Source: Naegleria gruberi
Taxonomy: Eukaryota
Assembly (NCBI GenBank): GCA_000004985.1
Contig: GG739563.1
Strand: one strand, 5' to 3'
Length of the DNA stretch: 1,098 bases
The notes under the pieces are model-generated. The model was given only the letters and a program-made list of their open reading frames with translations. It made no database searches and had not been told where the DNA came from. Shown piece after piece: positions 1 to 1,038 of the stretch. A program made the position numbers and the translations under genes. Position 1 is the stretch's first letter. Each line of letters starts with the position of its first letter.

Positions 1-20
1 GTTCCAAAATTTTTTCCAGG

Positions 21-74
21 CCTCCTAAAAAAAATACGAAATTGTTTATATGACACAACAGGTCCATAAGTCAC
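21..74 (-). promoter_or_regulatory. Possible minus-strand promoter plus RBS for a gene running leftward off the window
   Basis: On the minus strand, AGGAGG (reverse complement of 21-26) is a consensus Shine-Dalgarno sequence. A -10-like TATAAA (reverse complement of 45-50) lies 18 bp below a -35-like GTGACT (reverse complement of 69-74). No ATG lies within the window; the only candidate start is TTG (reverse complement of 5-7), 13 nt after the SD. Confidence 0.25.
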
Positions 75-131: not shown

Positions 132-191
132 TCGCCTGAATCGCAAGTTACGAAGTAAATGACAACTCCCGAACGGCTGCGATTCAGACGA
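132..191. repeat. Long imperfect inverted repeat or hairpin: inverted half-motif GCCTGAATCGC (134-144) pairs with GCGATTCAG of the 18-mer at 179-187
   Basis: Stem is 132-145 against 178-191, 13 of 14 positions paired (10 contiguous, 136-145 with 178-187), around a 32-nt loop. The reverse complement of 134-144 is gcgattcaggc, identical to 557-567. Confidence 0.6.
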
Positions 192-196
192 TTCCG
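163..196 (+). repeat. 34-bp motif CAACTCCCGAACGGCTGCGATTCAGACGRTTCCG, copy 1 (lies outside the 373-bp repeat)
   Basis: Identical to 461-494 and 834-867 except A191 against G489/G862. Confidence 0.9.
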
Positions 197-258
197 ATGT
201 ACGAACTACTTCTCAACAGTTCCGAAAATAGACAACCATGAAGTCAGAGACCCGAAGT

Positions 259-285
259 GCATGTTTTTGGGTTTTTGAAACATGC
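259..285. repeat. Inverted repeat GCATGTTT ... AAACATGC (8 bp, 11-nt spacer) at the left boundary of the tandem repeat
   Basis: 259-266 is the reverse complement of 278-285. At the unit1/unit2 junction the half-sites are adjacent, forming the palindrome ATGTTTgAAACAT at 644-656. Confidence 0.55.
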
Positions 286-326
286 TCAAAAATCAATTTC
301 TATAAAATAAAATCTTTACAAAAGGT

Positions 327-353
327 TATATAGATAATAGATAGATATATATT
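327..353. repeat. Simple-sequence tract (TATAGATAATAGATAGATATATAT) inside a block that is about 80 bp and over 85% AT; a second copy lies at 700-726
   Basis: ATAGA recurs at 330, 337 and 341. The flanking sequence 288-365 is almost entirely A/T. Confidence 0.7.
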
Positions 354-368
354 CATAAAAATCATTGT

Positions 369-395
369 CAACTTTTGAACGGCTGGGTTCTAGCC
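369..395 (+). repeat. Diverged relative of the 34-bp motif (CAACTtttGAACGGCTGgGtTCtAGcc); a second copy lies at 742-768
   Basis: Shares the core CAACTYYYGAACGGCTG (14 of 17 positions) with 163/461/834. The downstream half resembles CGATTCAG with a 1-nt indel. Confidence 0.6.
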
Positions 396-400
396 ATTTT

Positions 401-409
401 TGATATAAT
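401..409 (+). promoter_or_regulatory. Extended -10 element TGaTATAAT (perfect TGnTATAAT); a second copy lies at 774-782
   Basis: Exact match to the extended -10 consensus. No good -35 upstream, which extended -10 promoters can tolerate. The sequence context is AT-rich, so chance matches are possible. Confidence 0.4.
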
Positions 410-415
410 AGTTAT

Positions 416-443
416 TTGACTATACAATGATATATAATAATAT
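416..443 (+). promoter_or_regulatory. Alternative sigma-A-like promoter: TTGACT (416-421), 16-bp spacer, TAATAT (438-443); a second copy lies at 789-816
   Basis: 5 of 6 match at -35, 4 of 6 at -10 with the key A2 and T6 present. Predicted transcription start near 450. Confidence 0.3.
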
Positions 444-460
444 CAATTTTTTGAGGTACC

Positions 461-494
461 CAACTCCCGAACGGCTGCGATTCAGACGGTTCCG
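461..494 (+). repeat. 34-bp motif copy 2 (inside repeat unit 1)
   Basis: 33/34 identity with 163-196. Contains the 18-mer GCGATTCAGACGGTTCCG at 477-494. Confidence 0.9.
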
Positions 495-548
495 TAATTG
501 CATAATCAATGAATGTATCGCGTAGCTAACGTTTTCACAAATAGAAGT

Positions 549-557
549 GAAGGAGGG
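549..557 (+). promoter_or_regulatory. Shine-Dalgarno-like GAAGGAGGG with no substantial ORF downstream; a second copy lies at 922-930
   Basis: Core AGGAGG at 551-556. The only in-frame start nearby overlaps the SD itself: GTG at 547-549 in unit 1 and ATG at 920-922 in unit 2. It opens a 10-codon ORF, MKEGDSGDSD, that ends at TAA 577-579 (950-952 in unit 2). Confidence 0.35.
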
Positions 558-574
558 CGATTCAGGCGATTCCG
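557..574 (+). promoter_or_regulatory. 18-bp element of two tandem 9-mers GCGATTCAG-GCGATTCCG (candidate protein-binding direct-repeat site or iteron); a second copy lies at 930-947
   Basis: Same 18-mer architecture as 179-196 (GCGATTCAG-ACGATTCCG) and 477-494/850-867 (GCGATTCAG-ACGGTTCCG). The 9-bp internal period holds in every copy. Confidence 0.45.
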
Positions 575-617
575 ATTAAGAGACCGGTGTCCATAGATTT
601 AATTTGATTATAAATAT

Positions 618-643
618 AGTGACTTTCGGAATTCACTTTTTTT
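618..643 (+). terminator. Weak intrinsic-terminator-like hairpin plus T7 run at the end of repeat unit 1; a second copy lies at 991-1016
   Basis: AGTGA (618-622) pairs with TCACT (633-637) around a 10-nt loop, followed by TTTTTTT (637-643). The stem is only 5 bp with 2 GC pairs, so terminator strength is doubtful. Confidence 0.3.
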
Positions 644-833
644 ATGTTTGAAACATGCTCAAAAATCAATTTCTATAAAATAAAATCTTTACAAAAGGTT
701 ATATAGATAATAGATAGATATATATTCATAAAAATCATTGTCAACTTTTGAACGGCTGGGTTCTAGCCATTTTTGATATAATAGTTATTTGACTATACAA
801 TGATATATAATAATATCAATTTTTTGAGGTACC

Positions 834-867
834 CAACTCCCGAACGGCTGCGATTCAGACGGTTCCG
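834..867 (+). repeat. 34-bp motif copy 3 (inside repeat unit 2)
   Basis: Identical to 461-494 (+373). Confidence 0.9.
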
Positions 868-909
868 TAATTGCATAATCAATGAATGTATCGCGTAGCT
901 AACGTTTTC

Positions 910-920
910 AAAAAAAAAAA
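910..920. repeat. A11 homopolymer tract, present only in repeat unit 2
   Basis: Unit 1 has acaaatagaagt at the homologous position 537-548. Four point differences, all to A, separate the two copies. Confidence 0.9.
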
Positions 921-1020
921 TGAAGGAGGGCGATTCAGGCGATTCCGATTAAGAGACCGGTGTCCATAGATTTAATTTGATTATAAATATAGTGACTTTC
1001 GGAATTCACTTTTTTTACAT

Positions 1021-1038
1021 TCGATTTAGACGATTTAA
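1021..1038 (+). promoter_or_regulatory. Degenerate sixth copy of the 18-mer (TCGATTTAG-ACGATTTAA), 6 bp upstream of TATAAT at 1045-1050
   Basis: CGATT at 1022 and 1031 keeps the 9-bp phasing. The same 6-bp gap separates the 18-mer at 477-494 from the -10-like CATAAT at 501-506 (and 850-867 from 874-879). Confidence 0.35.

What the first reader, a model, noticed from the sequence alone, without database searches (positions are those of the whole stretch)
134..1038. Family of 18-bp elements (two tandem 9-mers) recurring six to seven times: candidate binding-site array for an unknown DNA-binding protein
The element GCGATTCAG-RCGRTTCCG is two tandem 9-mers of form RCGRTTCMG. It occurs at 179-196, 477-494, 557-574, 850-867 and 930-947, with a degenerate copy TCGATTTAG-ACGATTTAA at 1021-1038 and an inverted half-copy at 134-144. 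The pentamers CGATT and TTCCG are heavily over-represented on the plus strand. I count about 10 CGATT occurrences against roughly 1 expected, a rough by-eye estimate for this base composition. Two copies (477-494 and 1021-1038) sit exactly 6 bp upstream of -10-like hexamers (CATAAT 501-506, TATAAT 1045-1050) that lack a credible -35. That is the arrangement used by activators that bind direct repeats overlapping the -35 position. The 9-bp half-site phasing is unusual: OmpR/PhoB-type boxes are 10-11 bp and classical plasmid iterons about 22 bp, so this would be a binding mode I cannot assign to a known family.
Basis: partly seen in the sequence, partly recalled or inferred. Interest (0 to 1): 0.75.

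Follow-up and report, generated by a model that had tools for sequence, protein, structure and literature searches.

The report
Naegleria rDNA-plasmid spacer repeat elements

Summary
RCGRTTCMG occurs 12 times at up to 1 mismatch, against 0.95 expected. However, window 274-1017 is a 373-bp tandem duplication, so 477/850 and 557/930 are each one site counted twice.

The window is not bacterial. It is 99.3% identical to a 13.8-kb circular-type unit (L124) that carries eukaryotic 18S, 5.8S and 28S rRNA genes. It lies 1.15-2.25 kb upstream of the 18S gene, on the rRNA-sense strand, in the non-ribosomal spacer of a Naegleria gruberi-type rDNA plasmid (CERE). Published N. gruberi repeats of "34 bp to 371 bp" match the two repeat families seen here.

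Comparison of four Naegleria lineages shows a modular element:
- Box A, AACTYYYGAACGGCTG, with GAACGGCT invariant in 13 of 13 copies.
- Box B, CGATTCAG, with or without a second GATTC half.

A 21-nt run, TCCCGAACGGCTGCGATTCAG, is the only long invariant block in spacers that are otherwise about 30% invariant.

Best reading: conserved protein-binding elements of the rDNA upstream control region. I favour a role in RNA polymerase I promoter, enhancer or terminator function. The main rival is a replication-origin element like the Tetrahymena type I elements. The function is untested.

This is an ordinary kind of feature and of modest interest.

The parts
163..196 (+). Composite element, copy 1: Box A (AACTCCCGAACGGCTG) plus Box B 18-mer (GCGATTCAGACGATTCCG, 179-196)
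   Evidence: Member of the 34-nt repeat family. The 27-nt stretch CAACTCCCGAACGGCTGCGATTCAGAC is 100% identical in the diverged loci L121 and L122. Corresponds to L124 13179-13212, 2083 nt upstream of the 18S start.
369..402 (+). Variant Box A element (CAACTTTTGAACGGCTGGGTTCTAGCCATTTTTG), copy in repeat unit 1, lying 92 nt upstream of the composite element
   Evidence: The 92-nt spacing to the composite copy is kept in L121 (6145 to 6237). It matches the N. andersoni-type locus L129 at 87.5% over 40 nt. This is the only spacer match between L124 and L129 found beyond about 220 nt upstream of the 18S gene.
461..494 (+). Composite Box A plus Box B element, copy in repeat unit 1 (18-mer at 477-494)
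557..574 (+). Box B-only 18-mer (GCGATTCAGGCGATTCCG), repeat unit 1
   Evidence: In the three-lineage alignment it pairs with GGGTTCCAGTCAATTCTG in L121.
742..775 (+). Variant Box A element, repeat unit 2 (duplicate of 369-402)
834..867 (+). Composite Box A plus Box B element, repeat unit 2 (duplicate of 461-494); the copy nearest the rRNA gene
   Evidence: Corresponds to L124 13850-13883, 1412 nt upstream of the 18S start. The equivalent last copies lie 1425 nt (L123), 1231 nt (L121), 1201 nt (L131) and 1344 nt (L129, degenerate) upstream.
930..947 (+). Box B-only 18-mer, repeat unit 2 (duplicate of 557-574)
1021..1038 (+). Degenerate Box B (TCGATTTAGACGATTTAA)
   Evidence: family D3, 93%. 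In alignment A1 it pairs with ACTTTCGAATCAGGAC in L121, a recognisable Box B at the same position.
132..148 (-). Inverted Box B (ACTTGCGATTCAGGCGA on the minus strand)
   Evidence: Inverted repeats I6-I8. It carries the CTTG prefix typical of Box B-only copies. L121 and L131 also have inverted copies at the distal side of their arrays.
274..1017 (.). 373-bp tandem duplication (2.0 copies, 98% identical) that carries parts 2-4 and their duplicates 5-7
   Evidence: TRF, the repeat finder and BLAST 274-644 against 647-1017. Present as one copy in L123 and two copies in L124 and L125.

Best explanation
The window is part of the non-ribosomal spacer (NRS) of a Naegleria gruberi-type closed circular extrachromosomal rDNA element (CERE). 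It lies 1.15-2.25 kb upstream of the 18S gene, on the rRNA-sense strand.

The 18-mers are the 3' module (Box B: CGATTCAG, with or without RSGATTCYG) of a modular spacer element. The 5' module (Box A: AACTYYYGAACGGCTG) is the most conserved part.

I read these as double-stranded recognition sites for a sequence-specific nucleolar DNA-binding factor that works in the upstream control region of the single rRNA transcription unit. The most likely role is as part of the RNA polymerase I promoter, spacer-promoter, enhancer or promoter-proximal terminator apparatus. The 373-bp module has been duplicated by unequal exchange, as in other rDNA spacers.

Shown: the genomic context, the modular anatomy, the restriction to the spacer, the cross-lineage conservation and the copy-number polymorphism.
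Inferred: that a protein binds, and that the process is Pol I transcription rather than replication.
For: Context:
- The window is 99.3% identical to L124 13017-14114.
- L124 carries eukaryotic SSU, 5.8S and LSU rRNA genes, with SSU starts 13,799 nt apart.
- The near-identical L123 carries a GIR1 twin-ribozyme intron.
- ORFs on these loci cluster at 90% identity or more with, or are 81% identical to, N. gruberi rDNA-plasmid proteins BAF74738.1, AUH25139.1 and AUH25140.1.
- PMC5805870 reports N. gruberi NRS repeats 'from 34 bp to 371 bp'. These are exactly the two repeat lengths BLAST finds here.

Restriction to the spacer: 14 exact RCGRTTCMG 9-mers fall in the NRS against 0.19 expected, and 0 in the 5.8 kb of rDNA.

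Conservation:
- TCCCGAACGGCTGCGATTCAG is the only invariant run longer than 7 nt in a three-lineage alignment whose background invariant fraction is 0.30. That gives P of about 7e-9 for the alignment.
- GAACGGCT is invariant in 13 of 13 copies from four lineages.
- Box A within 3 mismatches is expected 0.1 times per six loci by chance.

Orientation and position:
- All composite copies near the gene point in the direction of rRNA transcription.
- The last copy sits 1.2-1.43 kb upstream of the 18S start in four lineages.
- The 92-nt spacing between the variant and composite copies is conserved.

Other points:
- The module copy number is polymorphic, 1 against 2. N. australiensis shows the same for a 360-bp NRS repeat (PMC10586121).
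- The elements show no significant hairpin (z = +0.2 to +1.2; the variant element z = -1.5). This fits recognition of sequence rather than structure.
Against: - No transcription start site is known for any Naegleria rRNA gene. PMC13398248 says the sequences governing rRNA transcription are unknown. So the link to the promoter is purely positional.
- A second candidate start region exists at the AT-to-GC switch, about 240-290 nt beyond the window end. If that is the start, the boxes lie about 500-1200 nt upstream of the promoter.
- Other short conserved islands lie further upstream, for example window 6-41. The boxes therefore do not mark a clean boundary between conserved and unconserved DNA.
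- The single CERE origin maps somewhere in the NRS (PMC13315211). I could not place it relative to the window.
- No box was found in the more distant loci L132, L134 and L136.
- No binding protein has been identified.
Confidence: 0.45

Rival explanations
1. The elements belong to the replication origin. The boxes would be recognition sites for the CERE origin machinery or for fork-pausing factors, like the Tetrahymena type I elements. The 373-bp duplication would then be a duplicated origin domain.
For: - A single origin maps to a 2.1-kb NRS fragment in N. gruberi (Mullican 2019, as cited in PMC13315211 and PMC11008152).
- In Tetrahymena rDNA, two origins lie in a tandem 430-bp duplication in the 5' spacer. 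Each has a 32-33-nt type I element about 0.7-1.1 kb upstream of the rRNA start site (PMC9967165). The geometry here is very similar: a 34-nt element in a 373-bp tandem duplication upstream of the rRNA gene.
- The stretch between the variant and composite boxes is very AT-rich.
- Inverted copies flank the array distally in three lineages.
Against: - I could not obtain the position of the mapped 2.1-kb or 636-bp origin fragment.
- There is no identity or complementarity of 9 nt or more between the box and the rRNA genes. A 26T-RNA-type recognition as in Tetrahymena ORC is therefore not supported.
- The box is GC-rich, not A/T-rich like type I elements.
- L124 has no exact yeast ARS consensus.
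Confidence: 0.3
2. The repeats have no function. They were generated and homogenised by unequal crossing-over and gene conversion in a 4000-copy plasmid. Their similarity would reflect concerted evolution and not selection.
For: - The NRS is 31% repetitive (PMC5805870).
- The 373-bp unit varies in copy number.
- An 87-nt repeat pair elsewhere in the NRS is 100% identical, which suggests recent conversion.
- Box B copies are shuffled between contexts and orientations.
Against: - Concerted evolution homogenises copies within a lineage. It does not explain a 21-nt block that is identical in three lineages whose flanks are only about 30% invariant.
- It does not explain GAACGGCT being invariant in 13 of 13 copies across four lineages.
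- It does not explain the conserved 92-nt spacing or the conserved distance to the 18S gene.
Confidence: 0.15
3. One reading: binding sites for a bacterial transcription activator overlapping the -35 position of sigma-70 promoters, controlling adjacent genes.
For: -10-like hexamers do lie 6 bp after two copies. The consensus scan finds 7 promoter-like sites.
Against: - The locus is a eukaryotic rDNA plasmid.
- The promoter-like count is at background: 7 found against 5.4 ± 2.5 expected.
- No flanking protein genes exist.
- The ATG at 1069 is not conserved in a 99.3%-identical locus.
- There are no matches in the plasmid or phage collections.
- Hits to the 18-mer in prokaryotic genomes are single chance matches, mostly in high-GC genomes.
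Confidence: 0.01
4. The elements are read as RNA or protein. Every 18-mer translates to RFRRFR in short plus-strand ORFs, so this could be a peptide family; or they could belong to a structured small RNA.
For: Four short ORFs contain RFRRF(R).
Against: - The ORFs are 27-39 aa. The four ORFs I looked up (three of these, 31-39 aa, and a 35-aa minus-strand ORF) are not on record as called genes.
- The second codon triplet set is absent from L121 and L122, and the frames are not conserved.
- Rfam finds nothing above E = 1.7.
- There is no significant fold and no tRNA.
Confidence: 0.01

Closest known systems
Repeat families of the Naegleria gruberi CERE non-ribosomal sequence (MG699123 / AB298288; PMC5805870)
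   Same: The organism group and genomic compartment are the same. The reported repeat sizes, '34 bp to 371 bp', equal the 34-nt and 371/373-bp repeats found here. The reported ORF upstream of the 18S gene and the endonuclease-like ORF downstream of the 28S gene are both present in the related loci.
   Different: The announcement lists the repeats only by size and assigns no function. None of the literature I could read describes the Box A/Box B anatomy, the invariant GAACGGCT core or the conservation across lineages. L124's unit length (13,799 bp) differs from EGB (14,007) and NEG-M (14,128), and its post-28S ORF is only 81% identical to the EGB protein. The fetched loci are therefore close relatives, not those strains.
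Tetrahymena thermophila rDNA 5' NTS: type I elements within the tandem 430-bp Domains 1 and 2 (PMC9967165)
   Same: Both are extrachromosomal high-copy rDNA. Both have an element of about 33 nt repeated in the upstream spacer, carried on a tandem duplication of about 400 bp, about 0.7-1.1 kb from the rRNA start, and conserved within the genus.
   Different: There is no sequence similarity. The Naegleria box is GC-rich, whereas type I elements are A/T-rich (from my own knowledge). It has no complementarity to rRNA. Origin activity has not been tested here. Tetrahymena rDNA is a linear palindrome, whereas the CERE is a circle.
Spacer promoters, enhancer repeats and upstream promoter region arrays of rDNA intergenic spacers (for example the Didymium/Physarum UPR with 260-bp D-motif repeats, PMC13182076; Xenopus and Drosophila spacer repeats, from my own knowledge)
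   Same: These are direct repeat arrays in the spacer just upstream of the transcription unit. They point the same way as the gene, vary in copy number, and contain short conserved motifs inside longer, faster-evolving repeat units.
   Different: In those systems the transcription start site and enhancer function were mapped by experiment. Here the start site is unknown, so I cannot test whether the repeats duplicate the gene promoter.
Pol I terminator and promoter-proximal terminator sites bound by Myb-like factors (mouse TTF-I Sal box, yeast Reb1; from my own knowledge, not tested)
   Same: These are short, orientation-dependent elements of 11-18 bp, with one copy a short way upstream of the promoter. 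The invariant core GAACGGCT contains AACGG, which resembles a Myb-type core. This is a lead from memory only.
   Different: There is no cluster of boxes downstream of the 28S gene. The first Box B copy lies 3.4 kb beyond the 28S end. There is no sequence identity to the Sal box or Reb1 sites, and no protein evidence.

Membership tests
Bacterial activator direct-repeat sites at -35 (OmpR/PhoB-type) | Located in a bacterial genome, upstream of a sigma-70 -10 element and a regulated gene | tested here: not met
   The locus is a eukaryotic rDNA spacer. Promoter-like sites are at background, 7 against 5.4. No downstream or upstream protein gene exists.
Bacterial activator direct-repeat sites at -35 (OmpR/PhoB-type) | Two half-sites in direct repeat with 10-11 bp phasing | tested here: not met
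   The phasing is 9 bp (GATTC-N4-GATTC). The second half-site is missing in lineage L121/L122.
Plasmid iterons | Direct repeats of about 17-22 bp next to a rep gene and the origin of a bacterial plasmid | tested here: not met
   No rep gene is present. The replicon is a eukaryotic nuclear rDNA circle. No match was found in 72,556 plasmid records.
Naegleria CERE non-ribosomal sequence repeats | Lies between the 28S 3' end and the 18S 5' end of a roughly 14-kb unit holding a single rDNA cistron | tested here: met
   The window corresponds to L124 13017-14114. LSU ends at 7263, the next SSU starts at 15262, and the unit is 13,799 bp.
Naegleria CERE non-ribosomal sequence repeats | Naegleria identity of the rDNA unit | tested here: met
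   A GIR1 twin-ribozyme intron is present in L123 and L121. The intron endonuclease is 83-91% identical to proteins named Naegleria italica, N. andersoni and N. gruberi. The spacer ORFs cluster at 90% identity or more with, or are 81% identical to, N. gruberi proteins BAF74738.1, AUH25139.1 and AUH25140.1.
Naegleria CERE non-ribosomal sequence repeats | Repeat sizes as published for N. gruberi (34 bp to 371 bp) | tested here: met
   BLAST self-matches of 34 nt and 371 nt, compared with PMC5805870.
rDNA spacer promoter / enhancer repeats | Tandem repeats upstream of the transcription unit, in gene orientation, with variable copy number | tested here: met
   The 373-bp unit is present as 2 copies in the window, L124 and L125 and as 1 copy in L123. 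All composite boxes are on the rRNA-sense strand.
rDNA spacer promoter / enhancer repeats | The repeats duplicate the gene promoter or stimulate Pol I initiation | not testable with these tools
   The transcription start site is unknown in Naegleria (PMC13398248). No RNA data or functional assay was available.
Tetrahymena-type origin elements (type I) | Conserved element of about 33 nt repeated in a tandemly duplicated upstream spacer domain | tested here: met
   A 34-nt element in a 373-bp tandem duplication, conserved in three to four lineages. This is an analogy of layout only.
Tetrahymena-type origin elements (type I) | Recognition through base pairing with an rRNA fragment (26T RNA) in ORC | tested here: not met
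   No match of 9 nt or more between the box and the rRNA genes, on either strand.
Tetrahymena-type origin elements (type I) | Coincides with the mapped replication origin | not tested
Pol I terminators (Reb1 / TTF-I type) | Cluster of oriented sites just downstream of the 28S gene | tested here: not met
   No Box A or Box B lies within 3.4 kb downstream of the LSU 3' end in L124.
Pol I terminators (Reb1 / TTF-I type) | Single oriented site about 150-250 bp upstream of the transcription start | tested here: inconclusive
   The start site is unknown. The boxes lie about 500 nt upstream of the AT-to-GC switch and 1.2-1.43 kb upstream of the 18S gene.
Known RNA families (Rfam) | Covariance-model match | tested here: not met
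   The best hit has E = 1.7 and 14 bits against a gathering score of 80.

The most novel reading that the evidence does not exclude
The GAACGGCT-centred box (Box A, with or without Box B) would be the first conserved cis-element defined in the otherwise fast-evolving Naegleria CERE spacer. It would be the docking site of a lineage-specific factor that couples rRNA transcription with plasmid replication. This would be a dual-function element like the Tetrahymena type I elements, but recognised as double-stranded, GC-rich DNA without an rRNA guide. It would give a handle for building stable Naegleria episomal vectors.
Probability: 0.15. Interest if true: 0.55.

Novelty: new member of a known kind. 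Interest (0 to 1): 0.3.

Why it matters
The CERE is the sole carrier of the rRNA genes in Naegleria, including the pathogen N. fowleri, at about 4000 copies per cell. The field states that the sequences controlling its replication, origin licensing and rRNA transcription are unknown, and that the spacer is too poorly conserved for comparison (PMC13398248, PMC13315211, PMC10112140).

A short box that stays invariant across several lineages gives a concrete probe. It can be used for EMSA, for affinity purification and for promoter or origin dissection, and it may help the design of episomal vectors.

For the genome scan itself, the main value is negative. This is not a new bacterial DNA-binding mode. 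It is an ordinary class of rDNA spacer repeat, and its presence in N. gruberi was already recorded.

Tried and rejected
1. I scanned prokaryotic genomes with the bare 18-mer. The pattern was poorly chosen.
2. blastn against the plasmid and phage collections found no match. The viral contig scan found nothing.
3. Exact look-ups of four short window ORFs found none on record. I rejected the RFRRFR peptide reading.
4. Rfam, tRNA scanning and hairpin folding of the boxes found nothing significant.
5. L124 has no exact yeast ARS consensus, and the window shows only background matches at 1 mismatch.
6. I tested for complementarity between the box and rRNA, as in Tetrahymena 26T. None was found.
7. 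I tried to locate the mapped N. gruberi origin. The primary paper and the review are not held. The plasmid sequences in the PMC12845041 supplement are truncated. Further literature searches gave no coordinates.
8. I used the GC-rich ORF upstream of the 18S gene to fetch more species. It found only itself.
9. I considered the argument that the boxes mark the boundary of collinear conservation, and therefore the promoter. I weakened it after finding further conserved islands upstream.
10. The resemblances to the TTF-I Sal box, to Myb sites and to a tRNA B-box are from memory only. I did not test them and do not rely on them.
Full report
**Observation**

RCGRTTCMG with up to one mismatch occurs 12 times against 0.95 expected, and none of 200 shuffles reaches that count. 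CGATT occurs 12 times on the plus strand against 2.3 expected. CGATTCAG occurs 5 times on the plus strand and once on the minus strand against 0.02 expected.

Two corrections are needed. First, window 274-1017 is a 373-bp tandem duplication of 2.0 copies at 98% identity. The pairs 477/850 and 557/930 are therefore duplicates, not independent occurrences. The enrichment survives collapsing the duplication: CGATT 8 against 1.4, and CGATTCAG 3 plus 1 against 0.01. Second, three of the 18-mers are the 3' half of a 34-nt repeat, CAACTCCCGAACGGCTGCGATTCAGACGRTTCCG, at 163, 461 and 834. A related element, CAACTTTTGAACGGCTGGGTTCTAGCC, lies at 369 and 742.

**Where the window comes from**

blastn against the plasmid and phage collections found nothing. 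My scan of prokaryotic genomes with the bare 18-mer returned only chance hits, mostly in high-GC genomes.

A longer pattern found three metagenome contigs. L123 matches the window at 98.5-99.2%, but with a single copy of the 373-bp unit. Rfam finds a eukaryotic SSU, 5.8S and LSU rRNA gene set on L123, plus a GIR1 branching ribozyme. From background knowledge, GIR1 is characteristic of Naegleria and Didymium twin-ribozyme introns.

Homologues of an ORF downstream of the 28S gene led to L124 and L125. L124 contains the whole window at 13017-14114 at 99.3% identity, with both 373-bp copies. It has an intron-less 18S gene, and two SSU starts lie 13,799 nt apart. The contig therefore reads through more than one unit of a circular or tandem element.

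The spacer ORFs of these loci cluster at 90% identity or more with, or are 81% identical to, Naegleria gruberi rDNA-plasmid proteins BAF74738.1, AUH25139.1 and AUH25140.1. The N. gruberi EGB announcement describes seven repeat families in the non-ribosomal sequence (NRS), 'from 34 bp to 371 bp' (PMC5805870). BLAST of the window region against the whole NRS returns repeats of exactly 34 and 371 nt.

The window is therefore spacer DNA of an N. gruberi-type closed circular extrachromosomal rDNA element (CERE). It is on the rRNA-sense strand, and its last base lies 1148 nt upstream of the 18S 5' end. A switch from about 25% to about 70% GC lies 240-290 nt beyond the window end.

No protein gene flanks the window. 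The ATG at 1069 reads ATA in L124, and the frame there is at most 57 aa.

**Anatomy across lineages**

Using intron homing-endonuclease homologues, I fetched further Naegleria rDNA loci:
- L131, a third lineage of the gruberi complex.
- L129, which encodes an endonuclease named N. andersoni.
- L132, L134 and L136, which are more distant.

Together with L121 and L122, a lineage whose spacer is about 70% identical or unalignable, these loci show that the element is modular.

Box A, AACTYYYGAACGGCTG, is the conserved part. GAACGGCT is invariant in all 13 distinct copies from four lineages. Matches to Box A within three mismatches are expected 0.1 times per six loci by chance.

Box B is CGATTCAG, usually preceded by CTTG, CTTT or GCTG. 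It occurs fused to Box A and also alone. It appears 10 times in the L124 NRS, 10 times in L121, 4 times in L131, none in L129 and once in L132. In L121 it occurs in both orientations.

It occurs once in L131 and never in L121. There the composite element continues ...CGATTCAGACAAAAGCG instead. The 'two tandem 9-mers' are thus a feature of the gruberi type, not the conserved core.

In a three-lineage alignment of the region, TCCCGAACGGCTGCGATTCAG is the only invariant run longer than 7 nt. The background invariant fraction is 0.30, which gives roughly 7e-9 for such a run anywhere in the alignment.

Other positional features are also kept:
- The variant-to-composite spacing of 92 nt is the same in L121.
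- The variant element is the only spacer sequence beyond about 220 nt upstream of the 18S gene that still matches between the gruberi type and L129, at 87.5% over 40 nt.
- The gene-proximal copy lies 1412, 1425, 1231, 1201 and 1344 nt upstream of the 18S start in L124, L123, L121, L131 and L129.

All are in the NRS, 1.3-4.6 kb upstream of the 18S start, and none is in the 5.8 kb of rRNA genes.

**Readings tested and set aside**

- Bacterial activator sites. The context is eukaryotic, and promoter-like matches are at background, 7 against 5.4 ± 2.5.
- Peptide. Every 18-mer can be read as RFRRFR. However, the ORFs are at most 39 aa and the four I looked up are absent from gene catalogues. The second triplet set is missing in L121.
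- Structured RNA or DNA. Rfam finds nothing and there is no tRNA. The boxes fold no better than shuffles.
- rRNA-guided recognition as in Tetrahymena ORC. There is no identity or complementarity of 9 nt or more to the rRNA genes.
- Yeast ARS consensus. L124 has no exact match.

**Mechanism**

The following points are shown:
- The elements are restricted to the spacer.
- Near the gene they share the gene's orientation.
- They are conserved in sequence, spacing and distance to the gene.
- They sit on a module whose copy number varies: one copy in L123 and two in the window, L124 and L125. N. australiensis shows the same behaviour for a 360-bp NRS repeat (PMC10586121).

The simplest reading is an array of double-stranded recognition sites for a sequence-specific nucleolar factor.

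Which process they serve is inferred, not shown. I favour RNA polymerase I control, meaning a core or spacer promoter, an enhancer or a promoter-proximal terminator (confidence about 0.45). The reasons are the shared orientation with the gene, the conserved distance of the last copy to the 18S gene, and the resemblance to the spacer-promoter and upstream-promoter-region arrays of other rDNAs (PMC13182076).

The main rival, at about 0.3, is a replication-origin element. The CERE has a single origin somewhere in the NRS (PMC13315211). The layout also closely parallels Tetrahymena, where two origins lie in a tandem 430-bp duplication, each with a 32-33-nt type I element upstream of the rRNA start (PMC9967165). 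I could not obtain the coordinates of the mapped Naegleria origin, so this remains open.

A role as a replication fork barrier or main terminator is less likely, because no copy lies within 3.4 kb of the 28S 3' end. Purely neutral repeats, at about 0.15, do not explain the invariance across lineages.

**Comparison and novelty**

The kind of feature is well known: repeated cis-elements in an rDNA spacer. The presence of 34-bp and 371-bp repeats in the N. gruberi CERE is already published, without functional assignment (PMC5805870).

What I did not find in the literature I could read:
- the Box A/Box B dissection;
- the invariant GAACGGCT core;
- its conservation in a spacer the field describes as poorly conserved (PMC10112140, PMC10586121, PMC13315211).

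I rate it a new member of a known kind, of modest interest (0.3). It could be useful to those trying to define the CERE promoter and origin or to build Naegleria episomes.

**Limits**

- All related loci are metagenome or contaminant contigs. Species labels rest on protein names and rRNA similarity.
- The single 373-bp copy in L123 could be an assembly collapse.
- No transcription start site, origin coordinate or binding protein is available, so the functional assignment is inference.

Noticed in passing
window 48-62 and 103-117: A perfect 15-nt inverted repeat (ATATGACACAACAGG / CCTGTTGTGTCATAT) with a 40-nt loop; as single-stranded DNA it folds with z = -5.4. The arm TATATGACACAAC also recurs at the start of each roughly 1.9-kb super-repeat of the spacer (L124 9486, 11406, 13066; L126 1964, 3881). 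Only the window copy has an inverted partner. This is a possible cruciform just upstream of the box array.
   Followed up: partly
window 6-41: A second conserved spacer island, AAAATTTTTTCCAGGCCTCCTAAAAAAAATACGAAA. It is 92% identical over 36 nt to the diverged loci L121 and L122, while its surroundings do not align.
   Followed up: partly
window 274-1017; L123 1231-1601: The 373-bp unit is present twice in the window, L124 and L125 but once in the otherwise 99%-identical L123. This is either a copy-number polymorphism or an assembly collapse. The two window copies differ mainly at 535-552 against 908-925 (CACAAATAGAAGTG against an A-run).
   Followed up: partly
L124 14400-15100 (about 290-990 nt downstream of the window end): A block of 65-71% GC with CCAGCCAACC-type micro-repeats. 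It contains a 173-178-aa ORF annotated as a hypothetical protein in N. gruberi (BAF74738.1, AUH25139.1). The ORF has no homologues outside the clade. It is probably a spurious ORF within the 5' external transcribed spacer.
   Followed up: partly
L124 14365-14420 (about 250-300 nt beyond the window end): A conserved block at the AT-to-GC switch, AGTTCATCGACCCCCC..AAATGTCTGA.C.TC.GTTCCTAACCTTGCGGAC, shared with L131 and partly with L121. It is an alternative candidate for the Pol I start region.
   Followed up: no
L123 6341-7408 (-); L124 7861-8916: An intact 351-355-aa ORF just downstream of the 28S gene, with a His-Me finger endonuclease domain (PF05551). The corresponding ORF was called 'likely a pseudogene' in N. 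gruberi EGB (PMC5805870). It is absent from L121.
   Followed up: partly
L123 12619-14434 against L121 8145-9960: The 18S gene plus GIR1 twin-ribozyme intron are 99.4% identical between two loci whose spacers are only about 70% identical or unalignable. This shows how quickly the spacer diverges relative to the rDNA, or it may reflect intron or rDNA exchange between lineages.
   Followed up: no
L124 9268-13000: The spacer upstream of the window consists of roughly 1.9-2.1-kb diverged super-repeats. One 87-nt segment is 100% identical between copies (10696-10782 and 12834-12920), and it contains a Box B-only element, CTTGCGATTCAGAGGATTCTC.
   Followed up: partly
The longest frame there is 53 aa in L124.
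   Followed up: yes
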